From the NCBI RefSeq assembly GCF_964204865.1, contig NC_135250.1, positions 27,838,001 through 27,902,000 on the forward strand: DNA of 64,000 nt, written 5' to 3'. The stretch is from Styela clava (lineage: Eukaryota). The position numbers and the translations under genes are program-made. The notes below the pieces were generated by a model. It searched no databases and had not been told where the DNA came from. It saw nothing but the letters and a program-made list of their open reading frames with translations. Positions 8,452 to 60,300 of this stretch are shown in pieces (within the stretch, counting starts at the first letter, position 1; each line of letters opens with the position of its first letter).

Positions 8452-11400
8452 TCAATATTCAATATCATGATAGGGGTGAAAATTTGTCGGCTCGTATTCA
8501 GATGATCCATCAGGTTGTTGCAATGAATCGCTCGTCAAGTATTTAATCTGGTGTCTTGGATCGGGATGATAAGTCATTGCAGAATGCTCATGACAAATAG
8601 GCAATTCGTATTCAGAAGTTTCGGTAGAGCTGGTTGTCTTTGATCGTTTAATAGTGTTGTTTTCGTAGATTCCGTGTTCACATTCAAACTGAGCTTTTGA
8701 TATATTTTTCATACTTGGTTTCTCATTATTCCGGATAGCAGTTGTATTCCTGTTGTTTTTCATCCTAAAATAATGAAAAAAGTATAGATTTCCAAGCTTC
8801 GGTCGTATCTCAATGTCATGCAGGTATAAATATTTCGGCGCCTAACCGTTGTAGATACAACAGTGATGCGAACATTTCGACAATGCTAACAAAAGCGAGT
8901 TCGACAATTAATGAATTTAATGTTACTTGGAATGATTTTGACCTACTACTACCGATCCCTGATGTCGTACTAACGACTCAACCACTTTTGAATCAGTTAA
9001 AAATAATACCTCTCTAACACAGTTTATATTATTCAAAATAGAAAATCCATTCCAAATCCAAAACTGCTATTTGGATATGTGATACGAATACCCATATGGA
9101 CATCTGAAGATTCCGAGAGTTGTTCCGGCAGATTCCGATAGTTTCCGTATTTGAAAACAATAGAAAATAAAATGGACGCTAGCTCTTTTAAATCAATGCC
9201 CTTGTCTGTGCAATGTTTATTAAACATCCAATAGTGATTTGAATCTTACTTGATAGTGATGACAATAATGATGATCACTGCAATAACGAGAAGAATGCCA
9301 AGTACAATAGTAGAGATGAAAAAGATTTTCTTTGTTTCTCTGCCAAGGTCGTCGCTACTTGTAGTTGGTTTTGTTATTTTCTCAACTCCAGTTTGTTCAA
9401 CCGACGCAGTTGTTGCTTCATTTGTGGGCAGGCGCGTGTTGCTTCCAGTAGTTGCAATTTGAACATCTTTATGAGCTTATTGAAAGTTTACATAATTCAA
9501 TACATCTAAATAATACCAATTATCATAACAAGCACAATTACAAGATTGACAGCATTGAAGTTTAAGAAATTAAAACCACACTAATTTTATTTTGTTCTAA
9601 TTTTTTTTTTTTAATATGTCGTCGATTTTGGTAAAGCCCAAAAATGTGTCAAGTTATTTTGTTTATAGGATATAAAAGCAATACCTATGTCGTGCTAACG
9701 AATAACCGCTCATAAGGACATAAGTATTCAGTTCGTTCTAAATTACAATAAATTCCTTGTTCCATTAGCGTATTTGTTTGCCCTTGTTTGCTGCATGTTT
9801 TCACATAGATTAAGGGAATGCGAAAATCTTGGAAATGATCATAGAAACCATCCTCTGTCTTATAGGTAATATTTATTCTAAATGCAAAGTCTTCAATGAT
9901 GATATGAGGAAATATTCTAGCACATCCGTCAGTAACAGAACCATTAGATACATTTTTGAAGAAAAAGGAAACAGTCGTTTGATTGGGAATTACGAAGTTC
10001 TGTTCTAATTTGATAAAAAATTTGCTATTTGCTATGCGGAGCATTTCATATAAATAGATTAATAAACATTGAATACAATACGAAGAACTTAAGTTGAAAA
10101 GACTAATTATATTCGCTCATACTTTGCTGCTTTCACCTGTGTTGTTTATGATCCGGTACATCAAATGGATTTTGTATTCTTGAATTTCATGAGAGTAACC
10201 ATTTCCTGTCTTATATGTCAAACTAATTGGAAAAATATTATCTTCAATGATATGCTGGTATATCCCATTACATCCGTCAGTAATAGATTTATCAGATACA
10301 GTTTTTGGGGCAAAAAGAAAACAGTCGCTGAGTTTGGAAGCACATAATTCTGTATCAACCAATCCAGCTGAAAAATAGTGATGAATTGGCGCCCTTACAT
10401 TATAGTACATGATAATACCTCCTATAATTTACCATATACGTCACTAATATGAGTACCAGGTCCTACTGTCACATATTATATCCGATATATTGGTTACCTA
10501 CTTAGAGATCTCGGCAAAAAAACGCATATCCCTAGTAACTGCGTTTTTTTTAAGTAAAGTGATACATTCTATTACTCTTTATATGGTGAATGGTGGTTAC
10601 ATTATCGCATGTAATTTTGAGGTAAATTATTTATTTTTGCGAAGCATAACTGACACCAACACATCTGTAATTCCTAATTACCGCAACAGCAGACAACTAT
10701 TCATAGGGATAACTATTATAAACTAGATAAGTAGTGCATTTATGCAACGTATAACACATAAACATGTTTTGAGAGAAATACCCCCTTGATGAAATAAAAT
10801 TACCAGGGCACAAATTAATTGAAACAAGCCTTAAAGGCGGATACAAAACTATATTTTTATAACAAATAAAAGTTGTTTAATTGTTACGGATAAACAAAAA
10901 AAAAATGTATTCACTTTGATTACCAGTAATTTTTAGAGATCCAATGCACTGACTGTTTTGATTGAGATTATTTTCAATAATTTTAACTAACATGACGCTG
11001 TTAACAGATATGCAACTATCGGCTTCTAATTCCCAAATATTGTGAATATCCCCTGCTCTTCTGAAAAATACAATTTAAACTTAATTTTCATGTTCATATA
11101 CGGCTGGATGATCATGAAATTTCATTTCATCATTTTTAAAAAGTTTATTAAAATAAATTTTTTTTATATTTTACATCATTCTGTTGATTGTTATTGAAGT
11201 TAAAAATTTTTTATTGAATTGGATGCTTTATTTGTATCAATTTTTATTATAATTTAACCAAAAAAAATTAAGAAATGTTTACTTTACGTTTGCTCCCACT
11301 TCAGGTGTTGTACATAAATCATAGTTAATCTGGTTCTGACCAATAGATTGGTGAAGTATTGCTGCCAATATAGATGAACAAAAAAGAATATTAGTTTTGT

Positions 11401-11835
11401 TGAATATTTTCCGCAGAACCGACAAGTCATAAATCCGTTCTAAAGGTTTGAGTTTCAAATACGCAACATTTTATTCAAGATGACTTCGTTAGGTATACGT
11501 ACAGTTATATGGCAGTGCAAATGTTTACTATCTCACTCAGTACTAATTAGTTATATCCGTGTCAAAGAAAAAATAAATTTATAAAACGCTGAAGTCACGA
11601 ATTTCTAAAAGACTCAAACTCTCGACGGAATCCTATAATTCATATCACTCATTTTAAAAAGATTGGGAAATATTCAAATTTGAATGAGGCATTTTAACTC
11701 AAAAAATTCTTTCCCTGTAAGTATTGAAGTGAACAACATCTATCCGTTTATATACATTACTGAGAGTCACTTATAAAAAATGATATGAACAAATTACTCA
11801 CATATAAGTAACAATACCCGCGCAAAGAAATGCAT
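8452..11835 (-). CDS. Gene B: class II membrane receptor-like protein, open if the duplicated exon is skipped and a cryptic acceptor is used
   Basis: Exons 11835-11802; 11367/11361-11283 (canonical acceptor AG>AT at 11368, in-frame CAG 6 nt downstream); 11060-10924; 10462-10433; 10367-10137; [10031-9783 duplicated exon, donor GT>GG]; 9475-9250 (stalk plus TM IFFISTIVLGILLVIAVIIIIVITI); 8764-8452 (tail with IYENN, EYELP, EYEPT, PYHDI). Confidence 0.65.
9783..10031 (-). pseudogene. Degenerate tandem duplicate of the 231-nt ectodomain exon (exon A')
   Basis: Translation homologous to exon A (TDGC..I..HI...INITYKTEDGFY). Internal indels sum to -3 and the donor is lost. Homologs at 34504-35614, about 52591-52835 and about 58593-58838. 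Confidence 0.75.
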
Positions 11836-11883
11836 GTTTTTCAAATATGTCATCTCCCGCCTCTTGCAACTACACCGAAGAAC

Positions 11884-11897
11884 TTTATATGGTTATC
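11884..11897 (-). promoter_or_regulatory. Putative TATA box with adjacent GATA motif
   Basis: GGATAACCATATAAA on the minus strand about 49 nt upstream of the ATG. TATAAA sits at the same 48-50 nt offset in D (24773), F (37466), H (54636) and I (60703). Confidence 0.45.
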
Positions 11898-14695
11898 CCA
11901 AGGTATAAAGTTTAAAAATGTAAAAATTTGTCAGGCCAACAGTTGTTATGCATGCATTCATCAGAGTATTTATGTATCTACTCTTTTATTACTTGTACTG
12001 AAGCGATGAATATTACTTGCCAAATGTAGATACGTAATTGTAAAGTACGCTCTTTGTTAATTGGTAATGTGTGATATCATTTCCTTGTGCACAAACGCTT
12101 ACCTGCAACAGTTTACTAAGGTTGTTTATTTGTAATCATGATCTGACTAATGTAATTCAATGATTGAGATTGAATCTTCCGAACAAAATTTTGAATTGGA
12201 AATATTGCTAATTTAGTTCGTGAACACTTTGGATATTTTTAATTTACTTAGATTACTCTTCACCCATTATGTATTTTGAAAGTGAATTGGCCAAATTATG
12301 AACAATGCTATGAAACAAGAGAGCGATGGTCAAATATATGAACACGAAATGATACGGGCATGCAATTTTTCACAATTTGGCACCGTATTGCAGCTGAGCA
12401 CAAATTTTAACTTACGCAAAGGCGAAACCACCACAAGGAGTGCAATTTTTAATTTTGTGATGACGTCATCGCACACAATACACGAATCTCTTAGAGGCCA
12501 CACATATTTTTGAGAAAGAGCAATGTCCAAATATGTGGACGCAAAGGTCGGGCATTGGTACTGGTACGGAAAGTCTAAAGCCTATAATAAAAAGGCCTTT
12601 AATTAAATTATTTATTGGCAATGAAGGATCAAATGACTAAACAAGAGAGCAATGCTGAAATATAGGGACACGAACGTCAAAACCCACACCCACAATTTCT
12701 CAAAACTATATTTTGAACGCTGGAACTAGAGACGGCTGTCATAAATACTTCTAGGTGTAGTTTAGTGGGTGGGCGTGTTGTAATAATTTTTGCATTTGCC
12801 ATTCCTGAGACCCACCTGATTGCGTCATCACAGCGATACGTCACAACTACGTCATATCATGTAATGAACCTTGCCAAAGCCAGATACCTTCCAAATACCT
12901 ACCTAAACTATTGCCTCACAAAAAAGCAAACAACGACATGGTGGAGTATAGTCACTGATTACAAATAAGAATTCACTTTGCTTCTATAGTCTTTTATCTT
13001 TATTCACGATTATTCCGCTTTTAAAATATGATTACACGAGAACTCGCGCATAAAATGTTTAATAATGAGGACAGGCATTCTTATAAAATTACAATCAAAT
13101 CAAAATCTAAAATAAACCCTTACACTCTCTATATCTCTGATACATTCATACCTAAAATATTACATGTTATCTTTCACTTTTGTTCATTGGCATTTCACGA
13201 AGGTATATTACGTAGTGATTTATTATCAAAGCTTACTAGAATTTACAAGTGAACGTAAATGTTATCAATTTATGGTAATTTACTTCAGACTAATCGTTCA
13301 GAACAAAACAAAGTTTTATATATTTTTTAAATAAGTATGTTTTAATTTCTCAAAATCTTTATATGTCTTCAGATCAAATTAAACTAAAAAGTTAGAAAAG
13401 AAATAATTTGAATGAATAAAGTGAAATGACGTACAGTTGGGACGAGAATGTGTATATGTATAACATGCAAATTGTCTCTGATGTATGGCTTACAAGAGAA
13501 TAGTAAAGCATGATAGCATGCTTGTATATTTATCAGTCTGTAATGTATTTTTTTTCAATTCGTCCAGAGTAGAGGTCAAATCAAGTTTTTCCAACCAGTA
13601 AAAGACAAAAATCATGCTAAAAATATATATATATAAAAAAATGATATTTAATCACTTGGGGATTAAAGGCGCGGGGAACCCAAACTGATTATCGAGCAGC
13701 TAAACCCAAAAATAAAATCAAAAGTAAACGATGCTCGCACTTGCGCTATGTCACAATTGATCATTGACCTTGGAAAGATATATTGATGCAAAACAACTAA
13801 ATGTTATACAGTTATGTAAATATTCAATGTCTTAATAATGGTTTAAATTTGTCGGTTCATATTCAGATGATCCATCAGGTTGTTGCAATGAATTGCTCAT
13901 CAATTATCCCACTTGACGCATTGGATCGGGATGTGTAGTCGTCTCAGAATGATCGTCTGAAATAGGTATTTCGTATCCAGAGGTCGCAGCTTGTATATTT
14001 GGTTGTATTTGTTTATTGACGATATTGTTCTCATAAATGTTTCGATCATTTTGAAACTGAGCTCTTGGAAAACTTGCGTTATGCACATTTGTTTTTTCAG
14101 GGTTGTCGGAAGTTGAAGCAGTTTTGTGCAGGCTCGTCCGACTCGTGGCCCGCGGGCCACATGTGGCCAATCGAAGGTTTCCGAGTGGCCCACGCGGTTC
14201 AATTCGAATCACAATGCCTCTCACAAATCTGGGCCATTATTGAAACCTCTAATAAAAAGATTATTCCTGGTCATTCAATCGCTCGAGAAGTACCACCCAG
14301 CTATCGAAATATTTTATTTAGGTCCCTTTGTGAGCGTTATTGGTGGAGAGAGATGCCTTGTATTTTAATCTGTTTTTCCTTTTTTTTTCCTGTGAAGCTA
14401 GAAGAGGCAATTTTTATGATCCTGATATTTGACAGTAGTTATTTGTACGAGCAAGTTTTTGCGCATGAACCATGTCAAATCCCCCGCGGGATCACTAATT
14501 TTTGATAGTGAAATGAAAAATTCGGTATGCATGGCTGCATCGTCCATCGCACCGAATATTGACAAACTTACTGGACAAAAGCGGTGTCATACTTGACATT
14601 AAAATATCTATTTGTGGTAAAAACTTTTGACGTAACTGTATCTTTGTATTTCCATTGTTTTTATAATTTTGGTGTGATGGTTTTGTTTGTTTTTT

Positions 14696-15620
14696 CATTA
14701 ATCAGAAGCAATGTAGTAAATACTAGAACATAACAACCATTTCAAGTGAAATGTGGCAGAAAGTCATGCAGCACTTGCCAACATTCCGAAGAAAGAAAAA
14801 TTGCAACAAGCAGACACAAGGACGTAGAAATGAAAATTAATCAGAAAATTACTTGCAACTCGGAGAATGTCATCTACTTAATAAGCTGCAAAAAGTGTGG
14901 CATGCAATACATAGGAGAAACGGGAAGACATCTAAAATATAGAATAACTGAACATATCAGAAGTATTAAAACCCAAAACAAAGATTTAGTTGTAGGTGCA
15001 CATTTCACCCAACCGGATCATTCACTTAAAGACTTCAGTGTCATTGGCATTGAAAAACTATTCCATGACCACATGTATAGAAAAAACAAAGAATCTTATC
15101 TCATTCATCGCTTCGGGACACATGAACCACAAGGGATGAATATTAAGGAAGTTTAAAGCAATTACTAATCTTGCATTCATTGTTTAACTCATCCTTTGTC
15201 TTTAATGTTGTTCTCAGGGTTGGATCATGCATGGCCATATATGTAGTCAACAGACAAACAATCAATATATTATAATTGACTCAAAGACGCTTTTCTGGTC
15301 AGCATCATCCAATGCTGAAAAACACAAAACACCATTGTTTAATTTGAATCTCAATTGTTCAATATAAAACAAAGAGAGAGAGATCTCATCAATGTCATCC
15401 CATTTCAGCCACCAGCTGTTATTTAATCAAGAATTCACTGATTTAATTGATTATTCAACATGCCTAACTCCCATTCTCTTATAATGATTGTTTAAATATG
15501 TATGTAACCGCTTTTCTTGTTGTAGTTGAACTATGTATGTCTGAAGAAGTCTGACCTTGGTCAGACGAAACGTTACACAAATATATTTGAGTTAGTGTGC
15601 AGCAAAACTCTTGAATCACT
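14696..15620 (+). mobile_element. 5'-truncated Penelope-like retroelement (GIY-YIG endonuclease plus 3' region)
   Basis: ORF 14746-15156: CGRKSCSTC knuckle, ITCNSENVIYLISCKKCGMQYIGETGRHLKYRITEH, VGAHF...H, R..KE..LI..F.T..P.GMN. These are the conserved motifs of the PLE endonuclease (Neptune-type knuckle). Confidence 0.92.
15532..15583 (+). ncRNA. Minimal type I hammerhead ribozyme of the Penelope-like element
   Basis: TGT-CTGAAGA-A-[GTCTGACC TT GGTCAGAC]-GAAAC-GTT-ACA: CUGANGA and GAAA core, 8-bp stem II, palindromic ACGT stem III, GUU cleavage triplet, TGT/ACA stem I. Confidence 0.8.
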
Positions 15621-18823: not shown

Positions 18824-18936
18824 TGGCGCCTCCGTAGTATGTGTACCAAGATGGCACACAACCCGATGGACCTAACCTGGTAAAAATACTATGTTCAGGT
18901 TGTGCGCCATTTTGGTACACATACTACGGGAGCACC
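18824..18936. mobile_element. Short fold-back MITE related to the 8012 family
   Basis: CCGTAGTATGTGTACCAAGATGGCACACAACC ... GGTTGTGCGCCATTTTGGTACACATACTACGG. Copies at 27978-28089 and 41643-41754. Confidence 0.8.
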
Positions 18937-18971
18937 AAGTAAATAATGCATTAACACACGTATAAAACCAG

Positions 18972-20975: not shown

Positions 20976-21944
20976 TCATTTTTTATTAGAATATTTTCGA
21001 TATAATATAATTTGGATGGAATATTGTACGGGCAATGCTTACAATATGTTTTTTCCCTATTTAACAACAAGGGTGGCATGCAATATATTGGAGAGTTACA
21101 ACAGCACATATTCTTCAATAAAATATGATAATCACAAAAGAGCTTCACCCACAAACAGTTCAGATTCGAACATTTGTTAACCAGCCATTATATGATTAAT
21201 CAGTCACTTGAGCAAATATGATGAATCATGCTGTTCATTCACTTTGTGATTATAACATATTTCTGCGTCACAGTTTGCGTTAATAAGTGATTGTACAAGA
21301 ATTACTCTGAAAATTGGAATCATTCCCAGAATAAGTTTCCTTAAAGGTTCAAACCGATCCTTGAACAAAAGAAAACTCATTTATGCGTCACTTACATGCA
21401 AATATATTATACAAATATAAGTACAAATAATAAGCAAATATAAGTACAAATTAAAGTCTAACTATGTATAAAAAATATTTAGGACAAAAATAGTGTTACA
21501 TTCAAAAGTTTTTGAAAATTTAATTTGGAATGATTTTGTGAAATATAAAAAACGCGTATACATCGGTTGGGCTAAATATTAAGATGCACGCTTCTCGTTT
21601 TCCGTAGTTGTATTGTTAAATTAAAGTGTTTTAGAGATAGGATGCATGCTATTGAATGATAGAATACAGTATATATAGGTCACTAATATAACACGCGAAA
21701 AGAAAACCTAGATATATGTACAATAGTGTTCAAAGAAAGAAAAAGCAATTTGATAAAAGAAAACAGTGTAACAGATCAAAGTCTTCAGCAATCTGTAAAT
21801 TGATGAAATTTGCTGTTACGCTAGGAACACTATATATTATAAGCACATTTTGTGTTGTCCGAAGTAATAATCAAATCTGAGGGTTTTGAGACAAAATGTA
21901 TCTACATATTATAAAGCACGCTGTCAATCATTTCTCTTTCCGAC

Positions 21945-24725
21945 TCAGCGTTTTTTTGAAGTTTTTTCGTTTTTGTTTACCACGCTATACATATCTTCAA
22001 TGTTTTCGGAGTTGTTTGATTCCTGGGCCTCGTCGTTCTCTTGCTGCACTTCGTTTTCTTGCCGCGGTTCAGATTCCAGAGAGGTTGTTGACAATAATTG
22101 ACGATAGTTTGCCAGTTTGCGATAAAATCTGAAACACATATGATAGTGATAACGAAGAGCTTAGAAAAATAAGAACGAGTTGTACTACTGTTTGGACTTC
22201 AATATTTTGCTTGAAAGCGGTTCAAAAGTGTGAACTGAACTATACTTCCTACCATTTATAAAAGGGTCATTTACCAAGTTACTACAATTTCCTTAAAAGA
22301 ATTCAGCGCTACATGTAAAAACTTGAGACTGGAACCATGCAGAATTGGTAAAAAATCAAGAATTGCAGATTACCTCAATGTTAGGGTGATTATGAGAGGT
22401 ACTGCTGAACCAAGCAAGACTGCTAGAACAATTATCAAAATTGAATTATCCTTTGTATTACACTTTCCATCATAACCGTTGGAATCCCTCATTGTTGCCG
22501 AATTCGGAACTGAGGTTATATCACTCTGTGTATTGTTCATCAAATAACCAGAATGAGTTTCCGTCGGTTCATTCTCTGAATATGTTGTGTGATAGTTAGA
22601 TGTGGTGGGAACGCTATTACTTTCTGTAGGTTGTTGAAGTTCTACAAATAGGTACAGTTCACTTATTATTGGCGGGAACCCTTTTTAAATCCAAGCGTAT
22701 ATATTCAAACTCGCCCCTCAATTAAAGATTTCTATAAGAAATTATGGTATCAAATATTTGAAAAGTGCGTTTGTTTCGTTAAAACTAAAATTACATTCCC
22801 TAATGTTTGAGAGATTATTGACTAGTTGAGTATGCCAATGTACTACATATTTACAATAATGTATATACTGTACTATTCTACAGAATTAGCATATTATAAT
22901 ATCGTTGCAGCTCAGCAAGCATACAAATTTCTTCGAGTAATATATGATTACACTTTTTGCAGTTATATTATTTTCTACTTCAGATTACTGCTGAAGACAA
23001 TACGAAGAACTTAAGTTGAAATAGAATAATTCAATTCGCTTATACTTAATTTGTTGCTTTTACCTGTGTTGTTTAATATCCGGTATATTGACAGTATGTT
23101 GAATTCTTGTAATTCAGAAGAGTAACCATCTCCTGTCTTATATGTTAAATTAATTAAAAAAACATTATCTCCAATGATATGACGGTATATTTTATTACAA
23201 CCGTCAGTAACAGATTCATCAGATACAGTTTTTGAGGCGAAAAGGAAACAGTCGTTGAGTTTGGAATCACACAGTTCTGTATCCACTAATCCAGCTGAAA
23301 CATGGTGATTAGTTGGTGCCTTTACATGATAATACCTCCTATAATTTATCATATACGACACTAATGTGAGTATCGGGTCCTGATTTTACATATTATATCC
23401 GATATATTGGTTACCTACGTGGAGATCTCGACAAAAAAACTGCAAATACCAAATATATATTTTTTTAAACAAACAAAGTGGTACATTCTATCAGTGTTTA
23501 TATGGTGAATGGCGGGAACATTATCGCTTGTAATTTTGAGAGAAATTGTTTATTGTTGGGAAGTTTGAAATACATATCTGAGAATAACAAAATTCCCAAT
23601 TCCCAATTAACGCAACAGAAGATGATAAAGACAACTATTAAAAACTAGATGAGTAGTGCATTTATGCAACGTATATAACACATAAACATGTTTCGAGGGA
23701 AATAATGTGTGAATAACGTGATGAAATAAAATGACTAAGACACAAGATAATCGAAACAAGCTTTGGAGGCGGATACAAAACTATATTTTTATAATAACTA
23801 AAAGTTGTGTGATTGTTTCAAATAAACACGAAAAATGTATTCATATTGATTACCAGTAATTTTCAGAGATCCAATGCACTGACTGTTTTGAGTGAGATTA
23901 GTTTTAATAATTTTAACTAACAAGACGCTGTTAACATATGTGCAGCGATCGCTTTTCATTTCCCAAATACTGTGAATGTCCCCTGTTCTTCTGAAAAATA
24001 CAATTTAAAAATGACTATTTATTCTTTATTTTTATGTTCATATACGGCTGCATGATCATGGAATTTCATTTCATCATTTTTAAAAGTTTATCAAAATAAA
24101 ATTTTTTACTCTATTTCACATCATTCTGTTGATTATTATTCATGTTAAAATGATTTTTTATTGGATTGGATGCTTTAATTGTATCAATTTTTATCAAAAC
24201 TTAATAAAAAAAAAGAGAAATATTTTACCTTACACTTGCTCTTGATACAGGTGTAGAACATAAATCAACGTTAAACTGACTCAGACCGATAGATTGGTGA
24301 AGTATTGCTGCCACTATAGGTGAACAAGAAAAGATTATTTGCGTTCAATATTTTTCTTCAGAACTGACGAGTCATGAATCCGCTCTAAGGGTTTGAGTTT
24401 CAAACACACGATATAGTATTGAAGTTGACTTCGTTAGGTATACGTAGTTATATCCTTGTTTAAAAAAAGTTATAAAACGTTGAAGTGCCAAATTTTTGAA
24501 AGACTGAAACCCTGAATGGATTTCTAGAATTCATATCACTCACTCTAAAAGTTTCGAAATCATTAAAATTTGAATAAGTCATTTTAGCTCAACAAATTCA
24601 TTTCCTATACGTAGTGAAGTAAACAACACCTATCCACTTATATACATTATTGAGAGTCACTAATGAAAAATGATACGAAGTAATTACTCACCTATAATTA
24701 ACAATACCCGTGCGAAGAGATGCAT
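21945..24725 (-). CDS. Gene D: class I receptor with shortened tail
   Basis: Exons 24725-24692, 24313-24229, 23990-23854, 23294-23064, 22641-22374, 22128-21945; micro-exon donor is mutated. A +1 A in a homopolymer ends the tail at ...YSVVNKNEKTSKKR*; the ancestral stop is at 21902. Confidence 0.75.
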
Positions 24726-25578: not shown

Positions 25579-25589
25579 ATTGACTATTC

Positions 25590-31346: not shown

Positions 31347-32812
31347 CTACATATTGTAAAGCACGTTGTTTACCATTTCTTTCTCCGACTCAGCATTTTT
31401 TCATTAAGTTTTTGTGTTTTTGTTGACGACACCATACATAGCTTCAATGTTTTCGGGGTTGTTTGCTTCTTGTGCCTCTTCTTTCTTTTGCTGGACTTCG
31501 TTCTCTTGCTTAATTTCGTTCTCTTGTTGAATTTCGTTCTCTTGCTGCACTTCGTTATCTTGCTGCGCTGCCATCTCTTGCTGTGGTTCAGATTCAAGAG
31601 ACATTTTCGAGGTTGTAGACAATAATTGACGATAGAGTGTCAGTTTGCAATAAAATCTGAAACACATATGGCAGAGATACCAAGAGCTTAAAAAAATAAG
31701 AACAAGTTGTACTACTGTTTAGACTATCGTTGATATCAATCTTTTGCTTGAAATTGATTTAAGAGTCTTTTATACTCACACACTTGAAATTTGTCTTGTA
31801 TGATTGATATGAACTGAGCTATACTTCCTACAATTTATAAATGGTTATTCGCCAAGTTATTACAATTTTTCAAAAGAAGTTAGCGCTATTTGTAAAGACT
31901 TGAGGCTAGAACCATACAGAATTAAAAAAAAATCGAATGACGGCACTGTAATTTTTTATGCAAATTACCTCAATGTTAGGATGATTATAATGAGTACTCC
32001 TAAACAAAGCAAGACTGCCAGAAAAATAATCAAAGTATATATCTTTTGTTTTACAATATCCATCATGACCGTTGAGTGTTTCTAAATCTTCTTTATCCGT
32101 AGCCAGTGGAATTAAGGTTATGTCATTTTGTGTATTGTTCAACAAATAACCAGGTTGAGTAGCAGTCGATCCATTCTCTGAATTTGTTGTGTGATAGTTA
32201 GATGTGGTGGTTACACTATTCCTTGCTGTAGTTTAGGTACAGTTCAGTTTTTATTGGTGGTATCTCTTTTTAAATTCAAGTATGTGCATATATCAAAAAT
32301 CGCCTCTCAATTAAAGATTTTTTTACGAAATTAGGATATCAAATATTTGAAAATTTTCATTTAAAAAGCGCGTTTGTCTCGTTTTGAATAAACTAAAATC
32401 ACATTACCTGATGTTTAAGAAATTATTGACTAGTTGAGTATGCCAATGTACTGTTTATTCAAAATAATGTATATACTGTGCTATTCTAGAGAATTGGCCA
32501 TTATAATAAAACTCGGCTAGCATACAAATTACTTATTTAAGTAATATATGTTTACACTTTTTGCAGCTATAGTATTTCTACTTCAGAATACTGCAGAATA
32601 TAATACGAAGAAATTAAGTTGAAAGAGAATAATTCAATTCGGTTATTTCTGATTTGTTGCTTTTACCTGTGTTGTTTATTATCCCGTACATTAACTTGAT
32701 GTTGAATATTTGTAATTCAGAAGAATAACCAACCCCTGTCTTGTATGTCAAATTAATAGGAAAACCTTTATCTCCAATGATATGATGGTATATCCCATTA
32801 CATCCGCCAGTA
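31347..32812 (-). pseudogene. Gene E: 5'-truncated class I pseudogene
   Basis: Tail exon 31656-31347 has a premature TAA at 31404. Stalk/TM exon (ending 31969) has a 2-nt frameshift and a deleted acceptor. Only the 3' part of exon A (32812-32667) remains before a deletion junction. Confidence 0.85.
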
Positions 32813-32822
32813 CATCCGCGTT

Positions 32823-36200: not shown

Positions 36201-37417
36201 AAATTATTTATTTTCGCGAAATTTAAAATACATAACTGAGACATCTCATTTGTGATTCCTAATTATCGCAACAGGAGATCATAATACAACTATTAAACTA
36301 ATAAAAATCAGATAAGTAGAGAATTTATGGTACGTATAACACATAAACATGTTTCGACAGAACTAAACACATGATGAAATGAAATTACTAGGACACAAAT
36401 TAATCGAAACAATCCTTGAAAGCGGATACAAAATTATATTTTATAATAAATAGAAGTTGTTTGATTGTTACAAACGAACACGAAAAATGAATTCACTTTA
36501 ATTACCAGTAATTTTCAGAGATCCGATGCATTGACTGTTTTGATTGAGATTATTTTTGGTAATTTTAACTAACAAGACGCTGTTAACAGATGTGCAACTA
36601 TCGGTTTTTAATTCCCAAATATTGTGAATATCCCCTGTTCTTCTGAAAAATACAATTCGAAAATGAATATTTAAACTATATTTTCATGCTCACATACGGC
36701 TGGATAATCATGAAATTTCATTTCATCATTTTTAAAACTTTATCAAAATAAAATTTTCCTATATTTTACATCATTCTGTTGAATATTATTCATGATAAAA
36801 TGATCTTTTATTTAATTTGATGCTTTATTTGTATTAATTTTTATCAGAATTTAATCAAATAAATAGAGAAATGTTTACTTTACACTTGCGCTTGATACAG
36901 GTGTAGAACATAAATCAATGTTAATCTGGTTCTGACCAATAGATTGTTGAAGTATTGCTGCCACTATAGATGAACAAGAAAGAATATTAGTTATGTTGAA
37001 TATTTTTCCTCAGAACCGACCAGTAATAAATCCGCTTAATGGGTTTGAGTTTAAAATACGCGTCATACTATTAAAGATGACTCCGTCAAGTATGCGAGCA
37101 GTTATATGCAAGTGCAGATGTCAATTATCTCACTTAGTACTAATTAGTTATATACTTGTTAAAAAAGTCAAGTTATAAAACGTTGAAGTTCGATTTTCTC
37201 AAAACCTCGATGGATTTCTAGAATTCATATCATTCACTCTAAAAAGTTTTGGATTTATTCAAATTTGAATGAAGCACTTCTCCACAAATTCATTCACTGT
37301 ACGTAGTGAAGTAAATAAAACATATCCACTTATATACATTATTGAGAGTCACTAATGAAAAATGATTCGAACTAATTACTCACCTATAAATAACAATACC
37401 CGCGCGAAGAGATGCAT
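33228..37417 (-). CDS. Gene F: class II receptor with tyrosine-free truncated tail (or recent pseudogene)
   Basis: Exons 37417-37384, 36963-36879, 36642-36506, 36051-36022, 35955-35725 (donor GT>AT, new in-frame GT 6 nt further), [A' disrupted by a transposon], 34186-33961, 33540-33228. TAC>TAG at 33441-33443 turns IYENN into I*. Confidence 0.55.
34553..35423. mobile_element. 871-bp TIR DNA transposon with 4-bp TSD inserted in exon A' of gene F
   Basis: ~48-bp TIR CGTCA(C/G)GCTAATAACCAAATTG.GTAAGTCATTTTTAGC; TSD ATAG at 34549-34552 and 35424-35427. Contains a hAT-like terminus (CCTGGCTACGCCACTG) ending at 34889. Confidence 0.85.
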
Positions 37418-45501: not shown

Positions 45502-48500
45502 CTACATATTATAAAGCACGTTGTCTACCATTTCTTTTTCTGACTTGGTGTTTTTGGAATTTTTCGCGTTTTTGTTGACGACGCTATACATATTTTCAAT
45601 GTTTTTAGAGTTGTTTGATTCTTGGGTCTCGTCGTCCTCTTGCTGCATTTCGCTCGGTTGCTGCACTTCGTTTTTTTGCTGCACTTCGTTCCCTTGTTGC
45701 ACTTCGCTATCCAGCTGCGCTTCCATCTCTTGCTGCGGTTCAGATTCCGGAGATAATTTCGAGGTTGTAGACAATAATTGACGATAGTTTGCCATTTTGC
45801 GATAAAATCTGCAACATAAATGGCAGAGATAACGAAGAGCTTAAAGACGCACGAACGAGTGGTACTACTATTTATACTAACGTTGATATCAATATTTTGC
45901 TTCAAAGTGGTTCAAAAGTCGTGTATACTTCACACACTTGAAATTTATCTTGTATGATTGGTATGAACTGAGCTATACTTCCTACAATTTATAAATGGTT
46001 ATTTAACAAGTTATTACAATTTTTCAAACGAATTTAGCGCCATTTGTAAAAAATTGAGGCTGGACCATACATAATTGAAAACAAAAAATCGAAGGATGGC
46101 GCTATAATTTTTTATGCAAATTACCTCAATGTTAGGATGATTATGATGAGTACTCCTAAACAAAGCAAGACTGCCAGAACAATAATCAAAGTTGGATTAT
46201 CTTTTGTTTTACAATTTTCACCATCTCCTGCATCCGTAGACAGTAGGATTAAGGTTATGTCATTTTGTGTATTGTTTATCGAATAACCAGGTTGAGTTGC
46301 AATCCGCCCATTTTCTGAATATGTTGTATGATAGTTAGATGTGGTGGGAACACTATTCCTTGCTGTAGTTTGTTGATGTTCTACAAATAAGTACAGTCCA
46401 GTTTTTATTGCTGGTAACTCTTTTTAAATTCAAGTATGTGCATATATCAAAAATCGCGTCACAATTAAAGATTTTTATAAGAAATTATGGTATCAAATAT
46501 TTGAAAATTCTCTTTTAAAAAGCGCGTTTGTTTCGTTTTCAATTAACTAAAATTACATTCTCTAATGTTAAACAGATCATTGACTAGATGAGTATGGCAA
46601 TGTACTGTATATTTAAAAAATGTATATACTTTACTATTCTACAGAATTGGCACATTATAATATTGTTGAAGCTCAGCAAGCATACATATTACTTTTTTTA
46701 GTAATATATGCTTACACTTTTTGCAGTTATATTATTTTCTACTTCAGATTACTGCAGAATACAATACGAAGAACTTAAGTTGAAAGAGACTAATTTAATT
46801 CGCTCATACTTAACTTGTTGCTTTTACCTGTGTTGTTTAATATCCGGTATATTAACAGGATTTTGAATTCTTGAAGTTCATGAGAGTAACCATTCCCTGT
46901 CTTATATGTCAAAATAATTGAAAAAATATTGTCTCCAATAATATGATGGTGCATCCCCCCACATCCGTCAGTAATAGCTTCCTCAGATACAGTTTTTGAG
47001 GCGAAAATAAAACAGTCGTTGAGTTTGGAATCACACAGTTCTGTATCCACTAATCCATCTGAAACATAGTGATTAGTTGGTGCCTTTACATGATAATACC
47101 TCCTATAATTTACCATATACGGTACTAATATGAGTATCGGGTCCTGATTTTACATATTAAATCCGATATATTGGTTACCTATACGTACAAATCTCGACTG
47201 AAAAACAGCATATCCCAAATATTTTTCGTTTTAAAAAAATATATAATGTGAAACATTTTATTACAGTTTATATGGTGAATGGCGGGAACATTATCGCTTG
47301 TAATTTTAAGGATAAATTGTTTATTGTTGTGAAGTTGGGAATACATATCTGATCACAACACAACTGTAATTCCCAATTAACGCAACAGAAGATGATAAAT
47401 ACAACTATTTAAAACTAGATGAGTAGTGCATTTATGTAACGTATATAACACATAAACATGTTTCGAGAGAAATAACCACATGATGAAATAAAATTACTGG
47501 GACACAGGTTAATCGAAACAAGCCTTGAAGACGATACAAAACTATATTTTTATAATAAATAAAAGTTGTTTGATTGTTACAAATAAACACGAAAAATGTT
47601 TTCATATTGATTACCAGTAATTTTCAGAGATCCAATGCACTGACTGTTTTGAGTGAGATTATTTTTTGTAATTTTAACTAACAAGACGCTGTTAACAGAT
47701 ATGCAACTATCGGCTTTTAATTCCCAAATACTTTGAGTATACCCTTTTCTTCTGAAAAATACAATTTAAAAAAGGACTATTTAAACTATATTTTCATGTT
47801 CATATACGGCTGGATGATCATGAAATTTCATTTCATAATTTTTAATAGTTTACCAAAATAAAATGTTTCCATATTTTTCATCATTCTGTTAATTATTATT
47901 CATGTTAAAATGATTTTTTATTGGAGAGGATGCTTTAATTGTATCATTTTTTATCAGAATTTAATAAAATAAAAATAGACAAATGTTTACTTTACAGTTG
48001 CTCCTGATATAGGGGTAGAACATAAATCAACATTAATCTGGTCCTGACCAATAGATTGGTGAAGTATTGCTGCCACTATGGGTGAACAAGAAAGAATATT
48101 AGTTTTGAATATTTTTCCTCAGAACCGACAAGTCATAAATCCGCTCTGGGGGTTTGAGTTTCAAATACACGTCATATTATTGAAGATGACTTCTTTAAGT
48201 ATACGAACAGTTATATGCAGTGCAAATGTCAACTATCTCACTTAGTACTAATTAGTTATATATTTGGTAAAAAAGTCAAGTTATAAAACGTTGAAGTTCC
48301 GATTTTCTCAAAACCTCGATGAAATTCTCGAATTCATATCACTCACTCTAAAAAGTTTCGGAATTATTCAAATTTGAATGAGGCAATTTAACTCAAAAAA
48401 TTCATTGAATGTAAGTAGTGAAGTAAACATCACCTATCCACTTACATTATTGAGAGTCACTAATAAAAAATGTTATGATCAAATTACTCACCTATAAGTA

Positions 48501-48525
48501 ACAATACCCGCGCAAAGAAATGCAT
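45502..48525 (-). CDS. Gene G: class I receptor, ~359 aa, apparently intact
   Basis: Exons 48525-48492, 48075-47991, 47751-47615, 47143-47114, 47058-46828, 46380-46125, 45808-45502; 1080 nt open. TM LIIVLAVLLCLGVLIIIILTL; tail NYRQL...NMYSVVNK...MVDNVLYNM*. Confidence 0.85.
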
Positions 48526-51313: not shown

Positions 51314-54300
51314 TCAATATTTAATATCATGATACGGAAGGAAGTTTGTCGGTTCGTATTCAGATGATCTATCAGGTTGTTGCAATGAATCGCTCGTCAA
51401 GTATTTAATCTGATGCCTTGAATCGGGATGAGAAGTCATTGCAGAATGCTCGTGACAGATAGGCAATTCGTAACCAGAAGTTTCGGTAGAGCTGGTTGTC
51501 TTTGATTGTTTAATAGTGTTGTTTTCGTAGATTCAGTGTTCACATTCAAACTGAGCTTTTGTTATATTTTTGATATTCGGTTTCATATTCTTCGGGCTTG
51601 TAGTTGTATTCCTGTTGTTTTTCATCCTAAAATTAAAAAAAAAATGTATGGATTTTCAAGCTTCGGTAGCATCTCAATTTCTTGCAGGTCTAACTATTTT
51701 GGCGCCTGAGTCTTGGAGATACAACAGTGATGCAAACATTTTACAAATGCAAACGGAGTCAACCAAGAAAATAAAGGAATTTGATGGCTTTTGATACCTG
51801 GAATGATTTTGACCTATTGCTGCCGATATCTGTCGTCGTATTAACGTTTCAACCACTTTTGAATCCACCAAAGATAATTACTCTTCAACTTAGTTGATAT
51901 TGATCTAAATAGAAAATCAATTTAAAAAAAAATTCAATTCCGATATGTAATACCAATAATCATATGAACATAAGAAAGCGGACAGAGACCGAGAGATTTA
52001 CGTGTCTGTCAAAAGTTTATTTAACATCCATTAGTGATTTGAACCTTACCTAATAGCGAGGACAATAATGATGATCACTGCAATAACGAGAATAATGCAA
52101 AGTACAAGAGTAGAGATGAAAAAGAATTTCTCAGTTTCTCTGCCAAAGTCGTCGCTACTTGTAGCTGGTTTTGTTATTTTCTCAACTACAGTTTGTTCAA
52201 TCGGCGAAGTTGTTGCTTCATTTGTGAGAAAGTACCTGTTGTCTTCAGTAGTTGCATTTTTATCATCTTTAGAAGCTTAAAAATTTATATAATTCACAAT
52301 ATTTATATAATAACAATCATTACAAAATTCACAATTTCGATATTGCTAGCATTAAAGTTTGGAAAAAAAATATCATACTAATTTTAATTTTTATTTTGTT
52401 TTGATTAATTTTTTTTTCTTAAAATATGTCTGATGTTAGTTAAGCCAAAAAATGTGTCGAGTCATTTTGTTTATAATATATAAAAGCAATAACTACGTCA
52501 TGCTAACGAATGACCACTCATGAGGCCATAACTATTCAGTTCGATCTAAATCACAACAAATTCCATGTTTATCTTTAGCTTATTTTTTACCTTGCTGCTT
52601 GTTTTCGCTTAAACAGGGGAAATGCGAAAAACTTGGAAATGATCATAGAAACCATACTCTGTCCTTTAAGTAATATTTATTGTAAATATATTGCCTTCAA
52701 TGATATGAGGAATTATCTTAGCACATCTATCGGTAATAGACTCATTAATCACATATTTGGAGTAAAAAGGAAACAGTAGTTTGGTTGGGAATCACAAAAT
52801 TCTCTGCTGATAGAATAAATCAAATTTCCCATTTGCTATATGAAGCATTTTATACAAATAGATTGATAAACATTGAATACAATACGAAGTACTTAGGTTT
52901 AAGGAGACTTATAAATTCGCTTATACCTAATTTGTTGCTTTTACCTTTGTTGTTTAATATCCGGTAATCCGGTATATTGACTGGAAGTTGAATTGTTGAA
53001 ATTCAGAAGAGTAACCATCTCCTGTTCTATATGACAAATTAATTGGAAAAATATTAACTCCAATGATATGCTGGTATATCCTATTATACCGTCAGTAATA
53101 GATTCTTCAGATACAGTTTTTGAGGTAAAAAGGAAACAGTCGTTGAGTTTGGAATCACACAGTTCTTTATCCACTAATCCAGCTGTGACATATTGATCAA
53201 TTGATGCCTTTATATGATAATACATGATAATACCTCGTATAATTTACCATATATGGCACTAATGTGATTATCGGGTCCTAATTTTACACATTATAACCGA
53301 TATATTGATTACCTACGTAGAGAACAGCATATCTCAAGTATCTTTCATTTTTATAAACAAATGAAGTGAAACATTATATGACTGCTTATATGGTGAATGG
53401 CGGGAACAATATTGCTTGTAATTTTGAAGGAAATAAAGTATTTTTGCGAAATTTGAAATACGTAACTGAGACTAACACATTTGTAATTCCCAATTACCTC
53501 AAAATAAGATGATAAAGACAACTATTAAAAACTAGATAAGGAGTGAAATTATGCAACGTTTAACACATGAACATGTTTCGAGGAAAATAACCACGCAATA
53601 AATTGAAATTACAAGGATACAAATTAATCGAAACAAGCCTTGAAGACGGATACAAAACTATATTTGTATAATAAATAAAAGTTGTTTATTTGTTACAAAT
53701 AAACACAAAAAATGTATTCACTTTAATAACCAGTAATTTCAGAGATCCAATGCACTGACTGTTTTGATTGAGATCATTTTTAGTAATTTTGACTAACGTG
53801 ACGCCGTCAACAGATGTGCAACTATCGGCTTTTAATTCCCAAATACTGTGAATATCCCCTCTTCTTCTGAAAAATACAATTTGAAAATGACTATTTGAAC
53901 TATATTTTCATGTTCATATATGGCTGGATAATCATGCAATTTCATTTCTTCATTTTTAAAAATTTATCAAAATAAATTAAGCCCATATTTTACATCATTC
54001 TGTTGATTATTATTTATGTTAAAATTATTTTTTATTGGATTGGATGCTTTATTTGTATCAATTTTTATCAAAACTTAATAAAAAAATAGAGAAATATTTT
54101 ACCTTATCATTGAGCCTGATTCATGTGTAGAACATAAATCAACGTTAATAGTACTCAGACCAATAGATTGGTGAAGAATTGCTGCCACTATAGGAGAACA
54201 AGAAGGAATATTAGTTGCGTTGAATATTTTTTCTCAGACCAACAAGTCATAAATCCGATCTTAGGGTTTGAGTTTAAAATACGGGGTTTAAGCTTTTTTT

Positions 54301-54588
54301 AAAGAAAGTATACGTACAGTTATATACAGTGCAAATGTCAACTATCTCACTTGGTGCTAATTAATTATATATCAAAAGTCAATATTGATAAATTCATATC
54401 ACTCACTCTAAAAAATTCGGGATTTATTCAAATTTGAATGAGGCATTTTAACTCAACAAATTTAATCACTGTACGTATTGAAGTAAACAACATTTATCCT
54501 GTTATATACATCATTGAGAGTCACTATTAAAAATAATATGAGCAAATTACTCACCTATAAGTAACAATACCCGCGTATAGAAATGCAT
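51314..54588 (-). pseudogene. Gene H: class II pseudogene
   Basis: -1 nt in exon 3. Exon A (53182-52945) is 238 nt (-1 plus an 8-nt duplication TACCGGAT). A' has a frameshift and a stop. TM exon 52275-52050 is open. Tail has GGA>TGA at 51533-51535. Confidence 0.85.
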
Positions 54589-57118: not shown

Positions 57119-57316
57119 CAAAAAAGGAGTTTTAACTCATTTTGCTAAAGTTATTTGTCAAATATATGTATGATCATTTTGTATGTCTATATAAACTCTA
57201 TTATAGCAAGATCTTCTCACATATTCAGGAGTGACTATACTCTACCCTGTCTAATCTCAAGCAGTCAATGACATGAAGAAGAACTGAAATAATGTTGAAC
57301 AAATTAACAGTTGAAG

Positions 57317-60300
57317 TCAATATTCGATATCATGATACGGGTGGAAATTTGTCGGCTCGTATTCAGATGATTTATCAGGTTGTTGCAATGAATCGCTCGT
57401 CAAGTATTTAATCTGAAGCCCTGGATCGGGATGAGAAGTCATTGTAGAATGCTCGTGACAAATAGGCAATTCGTATCCAGAAGTTTCGGTAGAGCTGGTT
57501 GTCTTTGATTGTTTAATAGTGTTGTTTTCGTAGATTCCGTGTTCACATTCAAACTGAGCTTTTGTTATATTTTTGATACTCGGTTTCATATTCTTCGGGG
57601 TAGTAGTTGTATTCCTGTTGTTTTTCATCCTAAAATTTAAAAAAATGTATGGATTTTCAAGCTTCGGTATTATCTCAATTTCTTGCAGGTCTAACTATTT
57701 TGGCGCCTGAACCTTGGAGATACAACAGTGATGCAAACATTTTAAAAATGCAAACGGAAGCAACCAAGACAATTAAGGAATTTGATGTTATTTGATACTT
57801 GGAATGATTTTGACCTACTGCTATCGATCCCTGCTGTCGTACTAACGACCCAACCACTTTTGAATCCGCCAAAGATAATTACTCTCCAACATAGTTGATA
57901 TTGATCTAAATAGTAAATCCAGTTTTTAAAAAATTCAATGCCGATATGTAATACCAATAATCATATGAACATAAGAAAGCAGGCAGAGTCCGAGAGTTGT
58001 ACGTGTCTGTGCAAAGTTTATTTTACATCCAATAGTGATTTGAACCTTACCTGATAGCAAGGACAATAATGATGATCACTGCAATAACGAGAAGAATGCC
58101 AAGTACAAGAGTAGAGATGAAAAAGAATTTCTCAGTTTCTCTGCCAAAGTCGTCGCTACTTGTAGCTGGTTTTGTTATTTTCCCAACTACAGTTTGTTCA
58201 ATCGGCGAAGTTGTTGCTTCATTTGTGAGAAAGTACCTGTTGTCTTCAGTAGTTGCATTTTTATCATCTTTGGGAGCTTAAAAATTTATAAAATTCACTA
58301 TATTTAAATAATAACAATCATTACAACATTCACAATTCTAACATTGTTAGCATTAAAGTTGGGGAAATAAAATCCATACTAATTTTAATTTTAATTTTGT
58401 TTTAATCAATTTTTTTTCTTAAAATATGTCGGATATTAGTAAAGCCTAAAAATACATCAAGTTATTTTGTTTATATTATATAAAAACAATAACTAAGTCA
58501 TGCTATCGAATGACCATCCATGAGGCCATAAATATTCAGTTCGATCTAAATCCCAATAAATTCCATGTTTATCATTGGCGTATTTTTTTTACTTTGTTGC
58601 TTGTTTTCGCGTAAACAGAGGAAATGCGAAAAACTTGGGAATGATCATAGAAACCATCCTCTGTCTTATAAGTATTATTTATTGTAAATATATTGCCTTC
58701 AATGATATGAGGAAATAACCTAGCACATCTATCGGTAATACATTTTTTAATCACATTTTTTGGAGTAAAAGAGAAACAGTCGTTCGGTTGGGAATCACAA
58801 AATTCTGAGCTGATAGAATAAAACAAACATGCTGTTTGCTATGCAAAGCATTTTATACAAATAGATTGATAAACATTGAATACAATAAGAAGAACTAAGG
58901 TTGAAAGAGACTTATTAAATTCCCTTATATTACTTATATTGTTGCTTTTACCTGTGTTTAATATCCTGTATATTGACTGGATGTTTAATTCTTGTAATTC
59001 AGAAGAGTAACCATCTCCTGTCTTGTATGTTAAATTAATTGGAAAAATATTATCTCCAGTGATGTGACTTTGTATTCCATTACATCCGTCAGTAATCGAT
59101 TCATCAGGTACAGTTTTTGTGGCGAAAAGGAAACAGTCGTTGAGTTTGGAATCACACATTTCTGTATCCACTAATCCAGCTAAAACATAGTGATAAGTTG
59201 GTGCCATTACATGATAAAACCTCCTAAAATTTACCAAATACGGTACTAATGTGAGTATCGGGTCCTAATTTCACATATTATATCCGATATATTAGTTACC
59301 TACGTGGAGATCAAGACAAGAAACAGCATATCCCAAGTAACTTTCGTTTGATAAACAAATGAAGTGATACATTCTATCACTGTTTATATGGTGAATGGCG
59401 GGAACAATATTGCTTGTAATTTTCAGGGAAATTATTTATTTTTGCTAAATTTGAAATACATAACTGGGACTAACCCATTTGTAATTCCACATTATCGCGA
59501 CAGGAGATCATAAAGACAACTATTAAACTAATAAAAATCAGATAAGTAGAGAATTTATGCTACGTATAACACATAAACATGTTTCGACAGAACTAACCAC
59601 ATCATGAAATGAAATTACTAGGACACAAATTAATCGAAACAAGCCTTGAAAGCGGATACAAAACTATATTTTTAAAATAAATAGAAGTTGTTTAATTTTT
59701 ACAAATAAACACGAAAAATGTATTCACTTTAATTACCAGTAATTTTCAGAGATCCGATGCACTGACTGTTTTGATTGAGATTATTTTTAGTAATTTTAAC
59801 TAACAAGACGCTGTTAACAGATGTGCAACTATCTGTTTTTAATTCCCAAATAGTGTGAATATCCCCTGCTCTTCTGAAAAATACAATTTAAAAATGACTA
59901 TTTAAACTATATTTTCATGTTCATATACGGCTCGATGATCATGAAATTTCATTTCATCATTTTTAAAAAGTTTATCAAAATGAAAATTTTCTCATATTTT
60001 ACATCATTCTGTTGATTATTATTCATGTTGAAATTATTTTTCATTGTATTGGATGCTTTATTTGTATCAATTTTTTTTGAATTTAATCAAAGGATATAAA
60101 AATGTTTACCTTACACTTGCTCGAAGTTCGGGTTTGGAACATAAATCAACATTAAACTGACTCAGACCGATAACTTGGTGAAGTATTGCTGTCACTATCG
60201 GTGAACAAAAATGAAGATTAGTTACGTTGAAAAATTTTTCTCGGAACTGACGAGCCGTAAATTTGCTTTGAGGGGTTTGAGTTTCAAATACGCGATATAT

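What the first reader, a model, noticed from the sequence alone, without database searches (positions are those of the whole stretch)
10137..59179. Ectodomain variants do not track tail class, suggesting exon exchange between classes
The exon A motif GNGYSHE.QE.KI is shared by class II B and F and class I G, while GDGYSSELQE.NI is shared by class I A and D and class II I. In exon 2, LSQFNVDL is shared by D (class I) and I (class II), while Q(N/D)QIN is shared by B, F, J and G. Gene conversion or unequal crossover homogenising ligand-binding domains across opposing tails is a known hallmark of paired receptors.
Basis: partly seen in the sequence, partly recalled or inferred. Interest (0 to 1): 0.7.

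Follow-up and report, generated by a model that had tools for sequence, protein, structure and literature searches.

The report
Sea-squirt receptors swapping sensor halves
A sea squirt carries a tandem array of look-alike cell-surface receptor genes with two unrelated kinds of inner tail, and recombination has repeatedly moved the front, outward-facing parts of these genes between the two kinds, a pattern known from vertebrate immune receptor pairs, though here the two tails are only predicted to send opposite signals.

Summary
'Exon exchange' is too narrow, and 'opposing tails' is untested. The window is part of a Styela clava array of six-exon type I membrane receptor genes. Each has one predicted CUB-fold domain (Z about 10, no Pfam match) joined to one of two non-alignable stalk/TM/tail cassettes. 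Across 22 array genes (9 class I, 13 class II) no site from promoter to exon 4 is fixed between classes. These ectodomains form one clade (100/100) apart from older class I and II genes nearby, while tails keep class affinity. PHI and triplet tests exceed non-recombining simulations. The best breakpoints lie inside exon 3 and in introns 1-2 and carry the promoter along, so they are unequal crossovers, not exon-sized swaps. No tail has a canonical ITIM or ITAM. Class I ends in MxxNxLY, a CD200R/Dok-like motif; class II carries YEN and YELP. Verdict: a known evolutionary process in an apparently undescribed CUB-fold receptor family; the paired inhibitory/activating function is plausible but unshown.

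The parts
943..5338 (-). Gene A, class I, six exons (E1 5305-5338, E2 4790-4874, E3 4425-4561, E4 3786-4016, stalk/TM 1418-1700, tail 943-1195); open frame, canonical splice sites
8452..11835 (-). Gene B, class II (E1 11802-11835, E2 11283-11367, E3 10924-11060, E4 10137-10367, stalk/TM 9250-9475, tail 8452-8764); open frame, but the exon 2 acceptor reads AT rather than AG
9690..10010 (-). Intronic relic copy of exon 4 (E4'); frameshifted in most copies; marks class II intron 4 in the main array
13805..14067 (-).
21902..24725 (-). Gene D, class I (E1 24692-24725, E2 24229-24313, E3 23854-23990, E4 23064-23294, stalk/TM 22374-22641, tail 21902-22128); a tail frameshift removes the C-terminal NxLY motif
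24658..24676 (-). Cross-class breakpoint in intron 1 of D: promoter and exon 1 are like class II F/r3/l1 (93-96%), the body is like class I; 3 kb of upstream DNA is shared with class II l7 and l3
31347..32812 (-). Gene E, class I fragment: 3' part of exon 4, stalk/TM and tail; 5' exons missing; broken
33228..37417 (-). Gene F, class II (E4 35725-35955, stalk/TM 33961-34186, tail 33228-33540); exon 4 donor reads AT and the tail has a premature stop, likely a pseudogene; itself a mosaic
45502..48525 (-). Gene G, class I (E2 47991-48075, E4 46828-47058, stalk/TM 46125-46380, tail 45502-45808); intact, with YRQL, MYSVVNK and MVDNVLY motifs
51314..54588 (-). Gene H, class II; frameshifts in E3 and E4 and a stop in the tail; 5' part like class I l8 up to a breakpoint near 54066 in intron 2
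57317..60653 (-). Gene I, class II (E2 60110-60194, E4 58952-59179, stalk/TM 58051-58276, tail 57317-57629); intact; 3' half of exon 4 like class I A/D
62457..62989 (-). Gene J fragment: exon 1 and part of exon 2 with stops; no tail, so no class

Best explanation
This is a tandem array of sea-squirt membrane receptor genes, each with one predicted CUB-fold outer domain and one of two unrelated tail cassettes, in which recombination has moved promoters and outer-domain halves between the two tail classes, likely by unequal crossing-over, and the two classes likely work as a damping/triggering receptor pair. Shown: the two classes share homology only from the promoter to about 70 bases into intron 4, and that region is mixed across classes while stalk, membrane anchor and tail stay class-specific. 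Inferred: misaligned pairing in the shared region gives crossovers anywhere in it, including mid-exon, and occasional short conversion tracts. Each sensor variant and promoter is thereby re-attached to either tail, alongside gene birth and death. Predicted: class I tails (xMYSVVNK and C-terminal MxxNxLY) recruit a Dok adaptor and perhaps Csk and dampen signalling without an ITIM, as CD200R does. Class II tails (YEN, YELP, YEPT) recruit SH2 adaptors and activate. Odds: cross-class recombination about 0.93; crossover rather than exon-sized exchange about 0.8; opposing paired function with this polarity about 0.4.
For: Gene model matches two independent NCBI models, P0001 = l11 (class I) and P0002 = r2 (class II). 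No fixed class difference in the 2190-column alignment of 22 genes; between-class identity is 0.79-0.89 per segment, against 0.78-0.90 within class. In the exon 3+4 tree the 22 main-array ectodomains of both classes form one clade (100/100) apart from 6 outer genes. Main I versus main II is 0.873, main I versus outer I is 0.626, yet class I tails are 0.792 to outer class I tails; outer c2b(II) and c2e(I) are sisters (100/99). Class I monophyly is rejected in 6 of 7 overlapping segments of the 22-gene set. PHI p=0.001, with 0 of 20 simulations significant. 364 of 4602 non-independent triplets exceed the maximum of 40 simulations. r1b(II): 127 vs 39 sites favour class I l2 before a break inside exon 3, and 124 vs 6 favour class II l5 after it. 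D(I): 47 vs 2 sites favour class II r3 before a break in intron 1, with shared upstream DNA. Fold: pLDDT 80; CUB domains fill the top of both searches, Z 10.0-10.3, rmsd 2.1-3.0. NxLY recurs in 4 of the 6 distant relatives found. The genome has a Dok1-like gene. Dok PTB plus G tail scored 0.51 against best control 0.01, with runs agreeing in at least 90% of contacts and partner pLDDT 46-59. The tool calls this weak: 51 of 78 solved and 2 of 108 mismatched pairs reach the mark, but at 0.60 or under only 5 of 78 solved and all 4 passing mismatches; Dok PTB structures are solved, so the pass may reflect likeness.
Against: Window genes alone reject class monophyly in only 2 of 8 segments; exon 4 plus the start of intron 4 does not reject it even with 22 genes (p=0.096). 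Some class structure remains: 3 of 11 sliding windows have permutation p<0.05, Fst at most 0.11. Only one between-class identical tract reached global significance in the 20-gene scan (r4/l7, 106 columns, p=0.047), and one in the window set (D/F, p=0.039). No excess of amino-acid change is shown: dN/dS 0.89, 0.97 and 0.62 for exons 2, 3 and 4, with intervals 0.49-1.64, 0.59-1.73 and 0.40-0.97. No canonical ITIM, ITAM or hemITAM in 24 tails. The class I motif EDMYSVV resembles Botryllus FcoR core-2 and hemITAM-like motifs, and dual core-2 FcoR1 is the partner of an activating receptor (PMC12582321), so polarity could be reversed. Only A, G and I of the nine window genes are fully intact; only 4 of 10 main-array class I tails keep MxxNxLY.
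Confidence: 0.6

Rival explanations
1. Neutral by-product. Two tail types are interleaved in a repeat array and the 5' half is their only shared homology, so ordinary unequal crossover mixes it. No selection for matched sensors is needed, and the tails need not oppose each other.
For: Introns and upstream DNA are mixed as much as exons. Breakpoints ignore exon edges. Exon 2 and 3 dN/dS is near 1. Many copies are broken. Shuffling also occurs within a class: tails pair D with l11 and A with r4, while exon 3+4 pairs D with A and l11 with r4.
Against: Both tail types are older than the main array and kept in the outer genes. The class II tail is under purifying selection (dN/dS 0.41, interval 0.22-0.74). 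A second independent I/II sister pair exists in the outer group.
Confidence: 0.3
2. One ancient chimera gave the main-array ectodomain both tails; later similarity is homoplasy at variable sites on a star-like tree.
For: Deep branches of the ectodomain tree are short and weakly supported. The exon 4 sites that define the two motif types are mostly amino-acid-changing.
Against: This predicts class monophyly, which is rejected in 6 of 7 segments. The intron-only PHI signal and long runs of linked sites in r1b, D and H are not explained by protein convergence.
Confidence: 0.04
3. Assembly artefact: collapsed or switched haplotypes create false mosaics.
For: No listed independent read or contig spans a breakpoint; run X1 covers r1b only in short pieces and may be the assembly's own sample.
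Against: Mosaic parts are 90-98% identical to their nearest donors, not 99-100%, and many different genes are involved. Proteins from a second NCBI record version of outer genes match this assembly closely.
Confidence: 0.03
4. Non-immune role: a CUB-fold cell-recognition family (gamete, self/non-self or adhesion) in which both tails are trafficking or adaptor modules.
For: CUB folds occur in spermadhesins and developmental receptors. NxxY motifs often serve trafficking (PMC8007030, abstract and passages). Class I also has a juxtamembrane YxxL.
Against: The array shows rapid birth, death and shuffling, and several tyrosine motifs per tail are conserved, as in Botryllus recognition receptors.
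Confidence: 0.15

Closest known systems
Merohomogenization of paired opposing leukocyte receptors (KLRC/NKG2, Ly49, PIR; PMC3210942, abstract and Discussion part 1 of 2 read)
   Same: The ligand-facing part is homogenised between genes with different tails; stalk and tail stay distinct; partners shift along the gene.
   Different: CUB fold instead of lectin or Ig; no ITIM, ITAM or charged transmembrane residue; tracts include the promoter and break inside exons; one genome only, no cross-species test.
Xenopus and mammalian CEACAM paired receptors (PMC5112662, abstract read)
   Same: Clustered type I receptors with similar outer domains and two tyrosine-motif tail types.
   Different: There the tails are ITIM/ITSM versus ITAM-like and conversion is recent; here cross-class tracts are mostly about 90-96% identical.
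Botryllus schlosseri Fester family and fester coreceptors (PMC12582321, passages and section 13 read; supplements not seen)
   Same: Tunicate receptor clusters that mix ectodomains and tails by intergenic recombination; the core-2 motif [A/D]VYxxV resembles the class I xMYSVV and the AVYSVV of a distant relative (P0008).
   Different: FF and FcoR are Ig-superfamily, encoded as gene pairs, some with canonical ITIM or hemITAM; 'Styela' does not occur in the main text.
CD200R-Dok2 inhibitory signalling (PMC8007030, abstract and passages read)
   Same: ITIM-free tail with NxxY after an acidic stretch; outside mammals the Pro is often Val, Ser or Thr, as in the class I NVLY.
   Different: No sequence or fold relation (CD200R is Ig-type, recalled); Dok binding here is only predicted.
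CUB domains (Adgrg6, Kremen1, TSG-6, MASP, C1r/s)
   Same: Same predicted beta-sandwich, about 100-110 aligned residues, Z about 10.
   Different: 4-16% identity, no Pfam CUB match, six conserved cysteines, sole domain of the receptor.

Membership tests
Paired opposing receptors | Closely similar ectodomains on genes with different tails | tested here: met
   0.873 between classes versus 0.878 within, exons 3+4
Paired opposing receptors | Genomic clustering of both types | tested here: met
   Classes interleaved over about 190 kb
Paired opposing receptors | Homogenisation restricted to the ligand-facing part | tested here: met
   No fixed class site up to intron 4; tails not alignable between classes; the promoter is included too
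Paired opposing receptors | Canonical ITIM on one type; ITAM, hemITAM or charged transmembrane residue on the other | tested here: not met
   0 of 24 tails match the ITIM, ITAM or hemITAM patterns; transmembrane segments uncharged
Paired opposing receptors | Opposite signalling output | not testable with these tools
   Only a weak predicted Dok PTB-tail complex
Paired opposing receptors | Shared ligand and co-expression on immune cells | not testable with these tools
   No ligand data; see Tried and rejected for RNA
CUB domain | CUB beta-sandwich fold | tested here: met
   Model of P0005, pLDDT 80; top 16 VIA rows are CUB-bearing proteins, Z 9.0-10.3; Foldseek best hit C1r CUB2, E 2.4e-4
CUB domain | Pfam CUB profile match | tested here: not met
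   No CUB family among those listed (one search shows 25 of 38 families; none for P0005)
CUB domain | Calcium-binding acidic residues | not tested
   Not examined
Botryllus FF/FcoR | Ig-superfamily ectodomain and FF-FcoR gene pairing | tested here: not met
   The best fold match is CUB and each gene has one such domain; both gene types here carry tyrosine tails

The most novel reading that the evidence does not exclude
An independently evolved paired-receptor system in a solitary tunicate, built on a single CUB-fold sensor. It uses an ITIM-free Dok/Csk brake (convergent with CD200R and PAG) against an adaptor-type activating tail, and crossover keeps re-dealing sensors and promoters between brake and trigger.
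Probability: 0.35. Interest if true: 0.75.

Novelty: new variant of a known kind. Interest (0 to 1): 0.5.

Why it matters
Ectodomain shuffling across tail types is well known for vertebrate lectin and Ig receptors and is reported for Botryllus Ig-type receptors. Here it occurs on a CUB-fold scaffold with tails that lack ITIM and ITAM. If the tails oppose each other, paired-receptor logic arose again in chordates with different parts, and an NxxY/Dok brake is older or more widespread than CD200R suggests. The array also offers a clean test of an open question: whether such homogenisation is selected or simply follows from shared homology. If the tails do not oppose, this is an ordinary recombining gene cluster.

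Tried and rejected
Chromosome painting: 234 donor switches observed versus 212-263 in 10 non-recombining simulations. The switch count, the donor-class gradient and the exon-edge test built on it are therefore not used as evidence. E4' as a second coding domain: rejected, because frames break differently among the 12 main-array class II copies printed and no shared in-phase acceptor was seen. Expression: no RNA holder listed; RNA-like contigs laid on window 1-20000 were dominated by repeats and gave nothing on r1b, so no conclusion. Run X5 (another sample, about 1,890 million letters read) laid 1 read on r1b at 96% likeness; no control stretch was laid, so copy-number variation is not claimed. 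A single-sequence fold of P0001 failed (pLDDT 42). Pfam and PDB sequence searches found only transmembrane-type weak matches. The protein Atlas gave no result, so that look-alike search is open. Homologue searches found only Styela clava proteins plus one unnamed protein, P0006; other tunicates are not excluded. Literature: no paper held all terms for 'Styela clava + paired receptor', 'ascidian + ITIM + receptor family + gene conversion', 'Styela clava + CUB domain + receptor + expansion' or 'tunicate + CUB domain + immune receptor + tyrosine-based'. The Dok PTB consensus Y/MxxNxLpY and the Csk-binding role of the PAG1 tyrosine are recalled; searches did not yield the consensus, and PMC6277618 (passages) shows only the PAG1 peptide EEISAMYSSVNK and that PAG binds Csk. 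Rows left out: 5 of 27 modelled loci (r6, r5, J, E, l9) lacked exons or a tail; r3 and l10 were also dropped from the 20-gene PHI and tract scans; one gene each was dropped from the E2 and I3 trees; dN/dS used only equal-length, stop-free exons (9-22 genes per exon). Earlier-finding look-ups by place and by sequence returned nothing.
Full report
Setting. The window is G000 C1:27,838,001-27,902,000 of a 377-Mb animal genome. NCBI names of the closest proteins identify Styela clava. Exon 4 homologues lie in a main array at about 27.76-27.95 Mb and an older group at 27.585-27.618 Mb; all 42 matches were in these two places, a lower bound. Both tail types were likewise found only there. I fetched both regions and modelled 27 loci in the main array.

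Anatomy. The model matches NCBI's P0001 (l11, class I) and P0002 (r2, class II) apart from local splice choices. The classes align up to about 70 bases into intron 4 and then diverge; their tail exons gave no BLAST match to each other. Class II intron 4 holds a frameshifted relic of E4. In the window, A, G and I are intact; B has a non-canonical exon 2 acceptor; D has a truncated tail; F and H are broken; E and J are fragments.

Fold. Pfam names nothing relevant. A model of array member P0005 from a 15-row alignment reached pLDDT 80. CUB domains lead both fold searches: Z 10.0-10.3, rmsd 2.1-3.0 over 99-109 residues, and C1r CUB2 at E 2.4e-4. Distant relatives at 27-36% identity were found, five of them on other S. 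clava contigs and one unnamed.

Observation. Support is strong for I(II) grouping with A/D(I) in the 3' half of exon 4, and modest for G(I) with B/F(II) and for D with I in exon 2. With only the seven usable window genes, recombination is clear (PHI z -11.6; introns alone z -5.9; 0 of 20 simulations significant). Class monophyly, however, is rejected in only 2 of 8 segments, exon 2 and the 3' half of exon 4.

Whole array. Among 22 genes (9 class I, 13 class II), no column is fixed between classes and every segment has polymorphisms shared by both. Identity between classes is about equal to identity within. Class I monophyly is rejected for the whole alignment (p=0.017), promoter-E1-intron 1 (1.5e-4), E2-E3 (3.5e-5), intron 3 (0.008), E2 (1.4e-5) and E4 (0.048), but not for E4 plus the start of intron 4 (0.096). 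Adding the outer genes gives the key contrast. Main-array ectodomains form one clade regardless of class (100/100). Class I ectodomains are 0.873 identical to neighbouring class II but 0.626 to outer class I, whose tails are 0.792 identical to theirs. Both tail types therefore predate the main array's ectodomain radiation, and at least one class acquired its present ectodomain from the other. Direction cannot be told.

Mechanism of exchange. A triplet statistic calibrated on simulations flags 364 of 4602 triplets. The clearest cross-class cases follow. r1b(II), outside the window, is class I-like (0.91) from the promoter to a point inside exon 3 and 0.977 like class II l5 after it. D(I) is 0.93-0.96 like class II F/r3/l1 in promoter and exon 1, breaks at about window 24675 in intron 1, and shares 3 kb of upstream DNA with class II l7 and l3. 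H(II) is like class I l8 up to about 54066 in intron 2. These are long one-sided tracts, typical of unequal crossover; 9.3-kb and 4.4-kb block duplications show the same process at larger scale. Short identical tracts between classes are few. 'Exon exchange' is thus not the right unit. A painting analysis failed its control and was discarded.

Selection. dN/dS is 0.89 (E2), 0.97 (E3), 0.62 (E4) and 0.41 (class II tail); none is significantly above 1. Selection for matched sensors is not demonstrated.

Tails. None of 24 tails has a canonical ITIM, ITAM or hemITAM, and the membrane anchors are uncharged. Class II carries YEN, YELP, YEPT and YHDI; reading these as Grb2- and Crk/Nck-type sites is recalled knowledge. 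Class I carries YRQL, xMYSVVNK and C-terminal MxxNxLY, the last intact in 4 of 10 main-array tails and echoed in 4 of 6 distant relatives. CD200R inhibits through an NxxY motif and Dok2, with Val common at the second position outside mammals (PMC8007030, passages). The genome has a PH-PTB gene closest to Dok1, whose own linker reads LTDNVIY. A predicted Dok PTB-tail complex scored 0.51 against a best control of 0.01, with runs agreeing in at least 90% of contacts and partner pLDDT 46-59. The tool rates this weak: 51 of 78 solved and 2 of 108 mismatched pairs pass, but at 0.60 or under 5 solved pairs and all 4 passing mismatches; it may reflect likeness to solved Dok structures. MYSVVNK resembles the PAG1 peptide EEISAMYSSVNK (PMC6277618 table); that this is the Csk site is recalled. 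Against this polarity, the same motif resembles Botryllus FcoR core-2 and hemITAM-like motifs, one of which goes with an activating receptor (PMC12582321).

Comparison and verdict. The pattern is what PMC3210942 calls merohomogenization; that paper itself notes it may be the default where only signalling must be preserved. Botryllus FF genes also mix ectodomains and tails. The process is therefore known. The family was not found in four literature searches, within a library that lacks most subscription journals. It fails the canonical-motif test for paired receptors but may work like them. Recombination across classes about 0.93; paired opposing function about 0.4; interest 0.5.

Noticed in passing
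window 14734-15153 (+): Open frame with a GIY-YIG domain (Pfam PF01541, E 1.2e-5), likely a mobile-element fragment between B and D.
   Followed up: partly
window 25607-25790, 38290-38468, 63855-64000 (-), and four places outside the window: A decayed class II tail exon sits about 1 kb upstream of exon 1 in D, F, J, r3, l1, l3 and l7 and marks one upstream haplotype; D is the only class I gene with it.
   Followed up: partly
L017 and L018 (outer group, about 27,592,500 and 27,603,000): Two outer class II genes carry a class I-type stalk exon relic just ahead of their class II stalk exon, hinting that class II arose by adding a new cassette behind a class I gene.
   Followed up: no
window 31478-31583 and 45639-45736: An 18-bp coding repeat (QQENEV-like) varies in copy number in class I tails and changes the spacing between the membrane and the tyrosine motifs.
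   Followed up: no
window 21902-22128 and gene l11 (L002): D and l11 share the same tail frameshift that removes the terminal NxLY motif; NCBI models l11 with this short tail, so it may be a used variant.
   Followed up: partly
window about 32820: Fragment E begins at a high-copy repeat directly behind F's tail, consistent with a deletion that removed its 5' exons.
   Followed up: partly
L021:1033-2382 (G000 C17): Single-frame PH-PTB gene closest to Dok1 (E 5e-17); its linker LTDNVIY resembles the class I tail end.
   Followed up: partly
window 44904-45280 (-): Two extra partial copies of the class I tail end lie behind G, within a 263-bp tandem repeat.
   Followed up: no
class II stalk/TM exon, e.g. 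window 9250-9475: dN/dS 1.37 (interval 0.85-2.71), the highest of the six exons tested, not significant.
   Followed up: no
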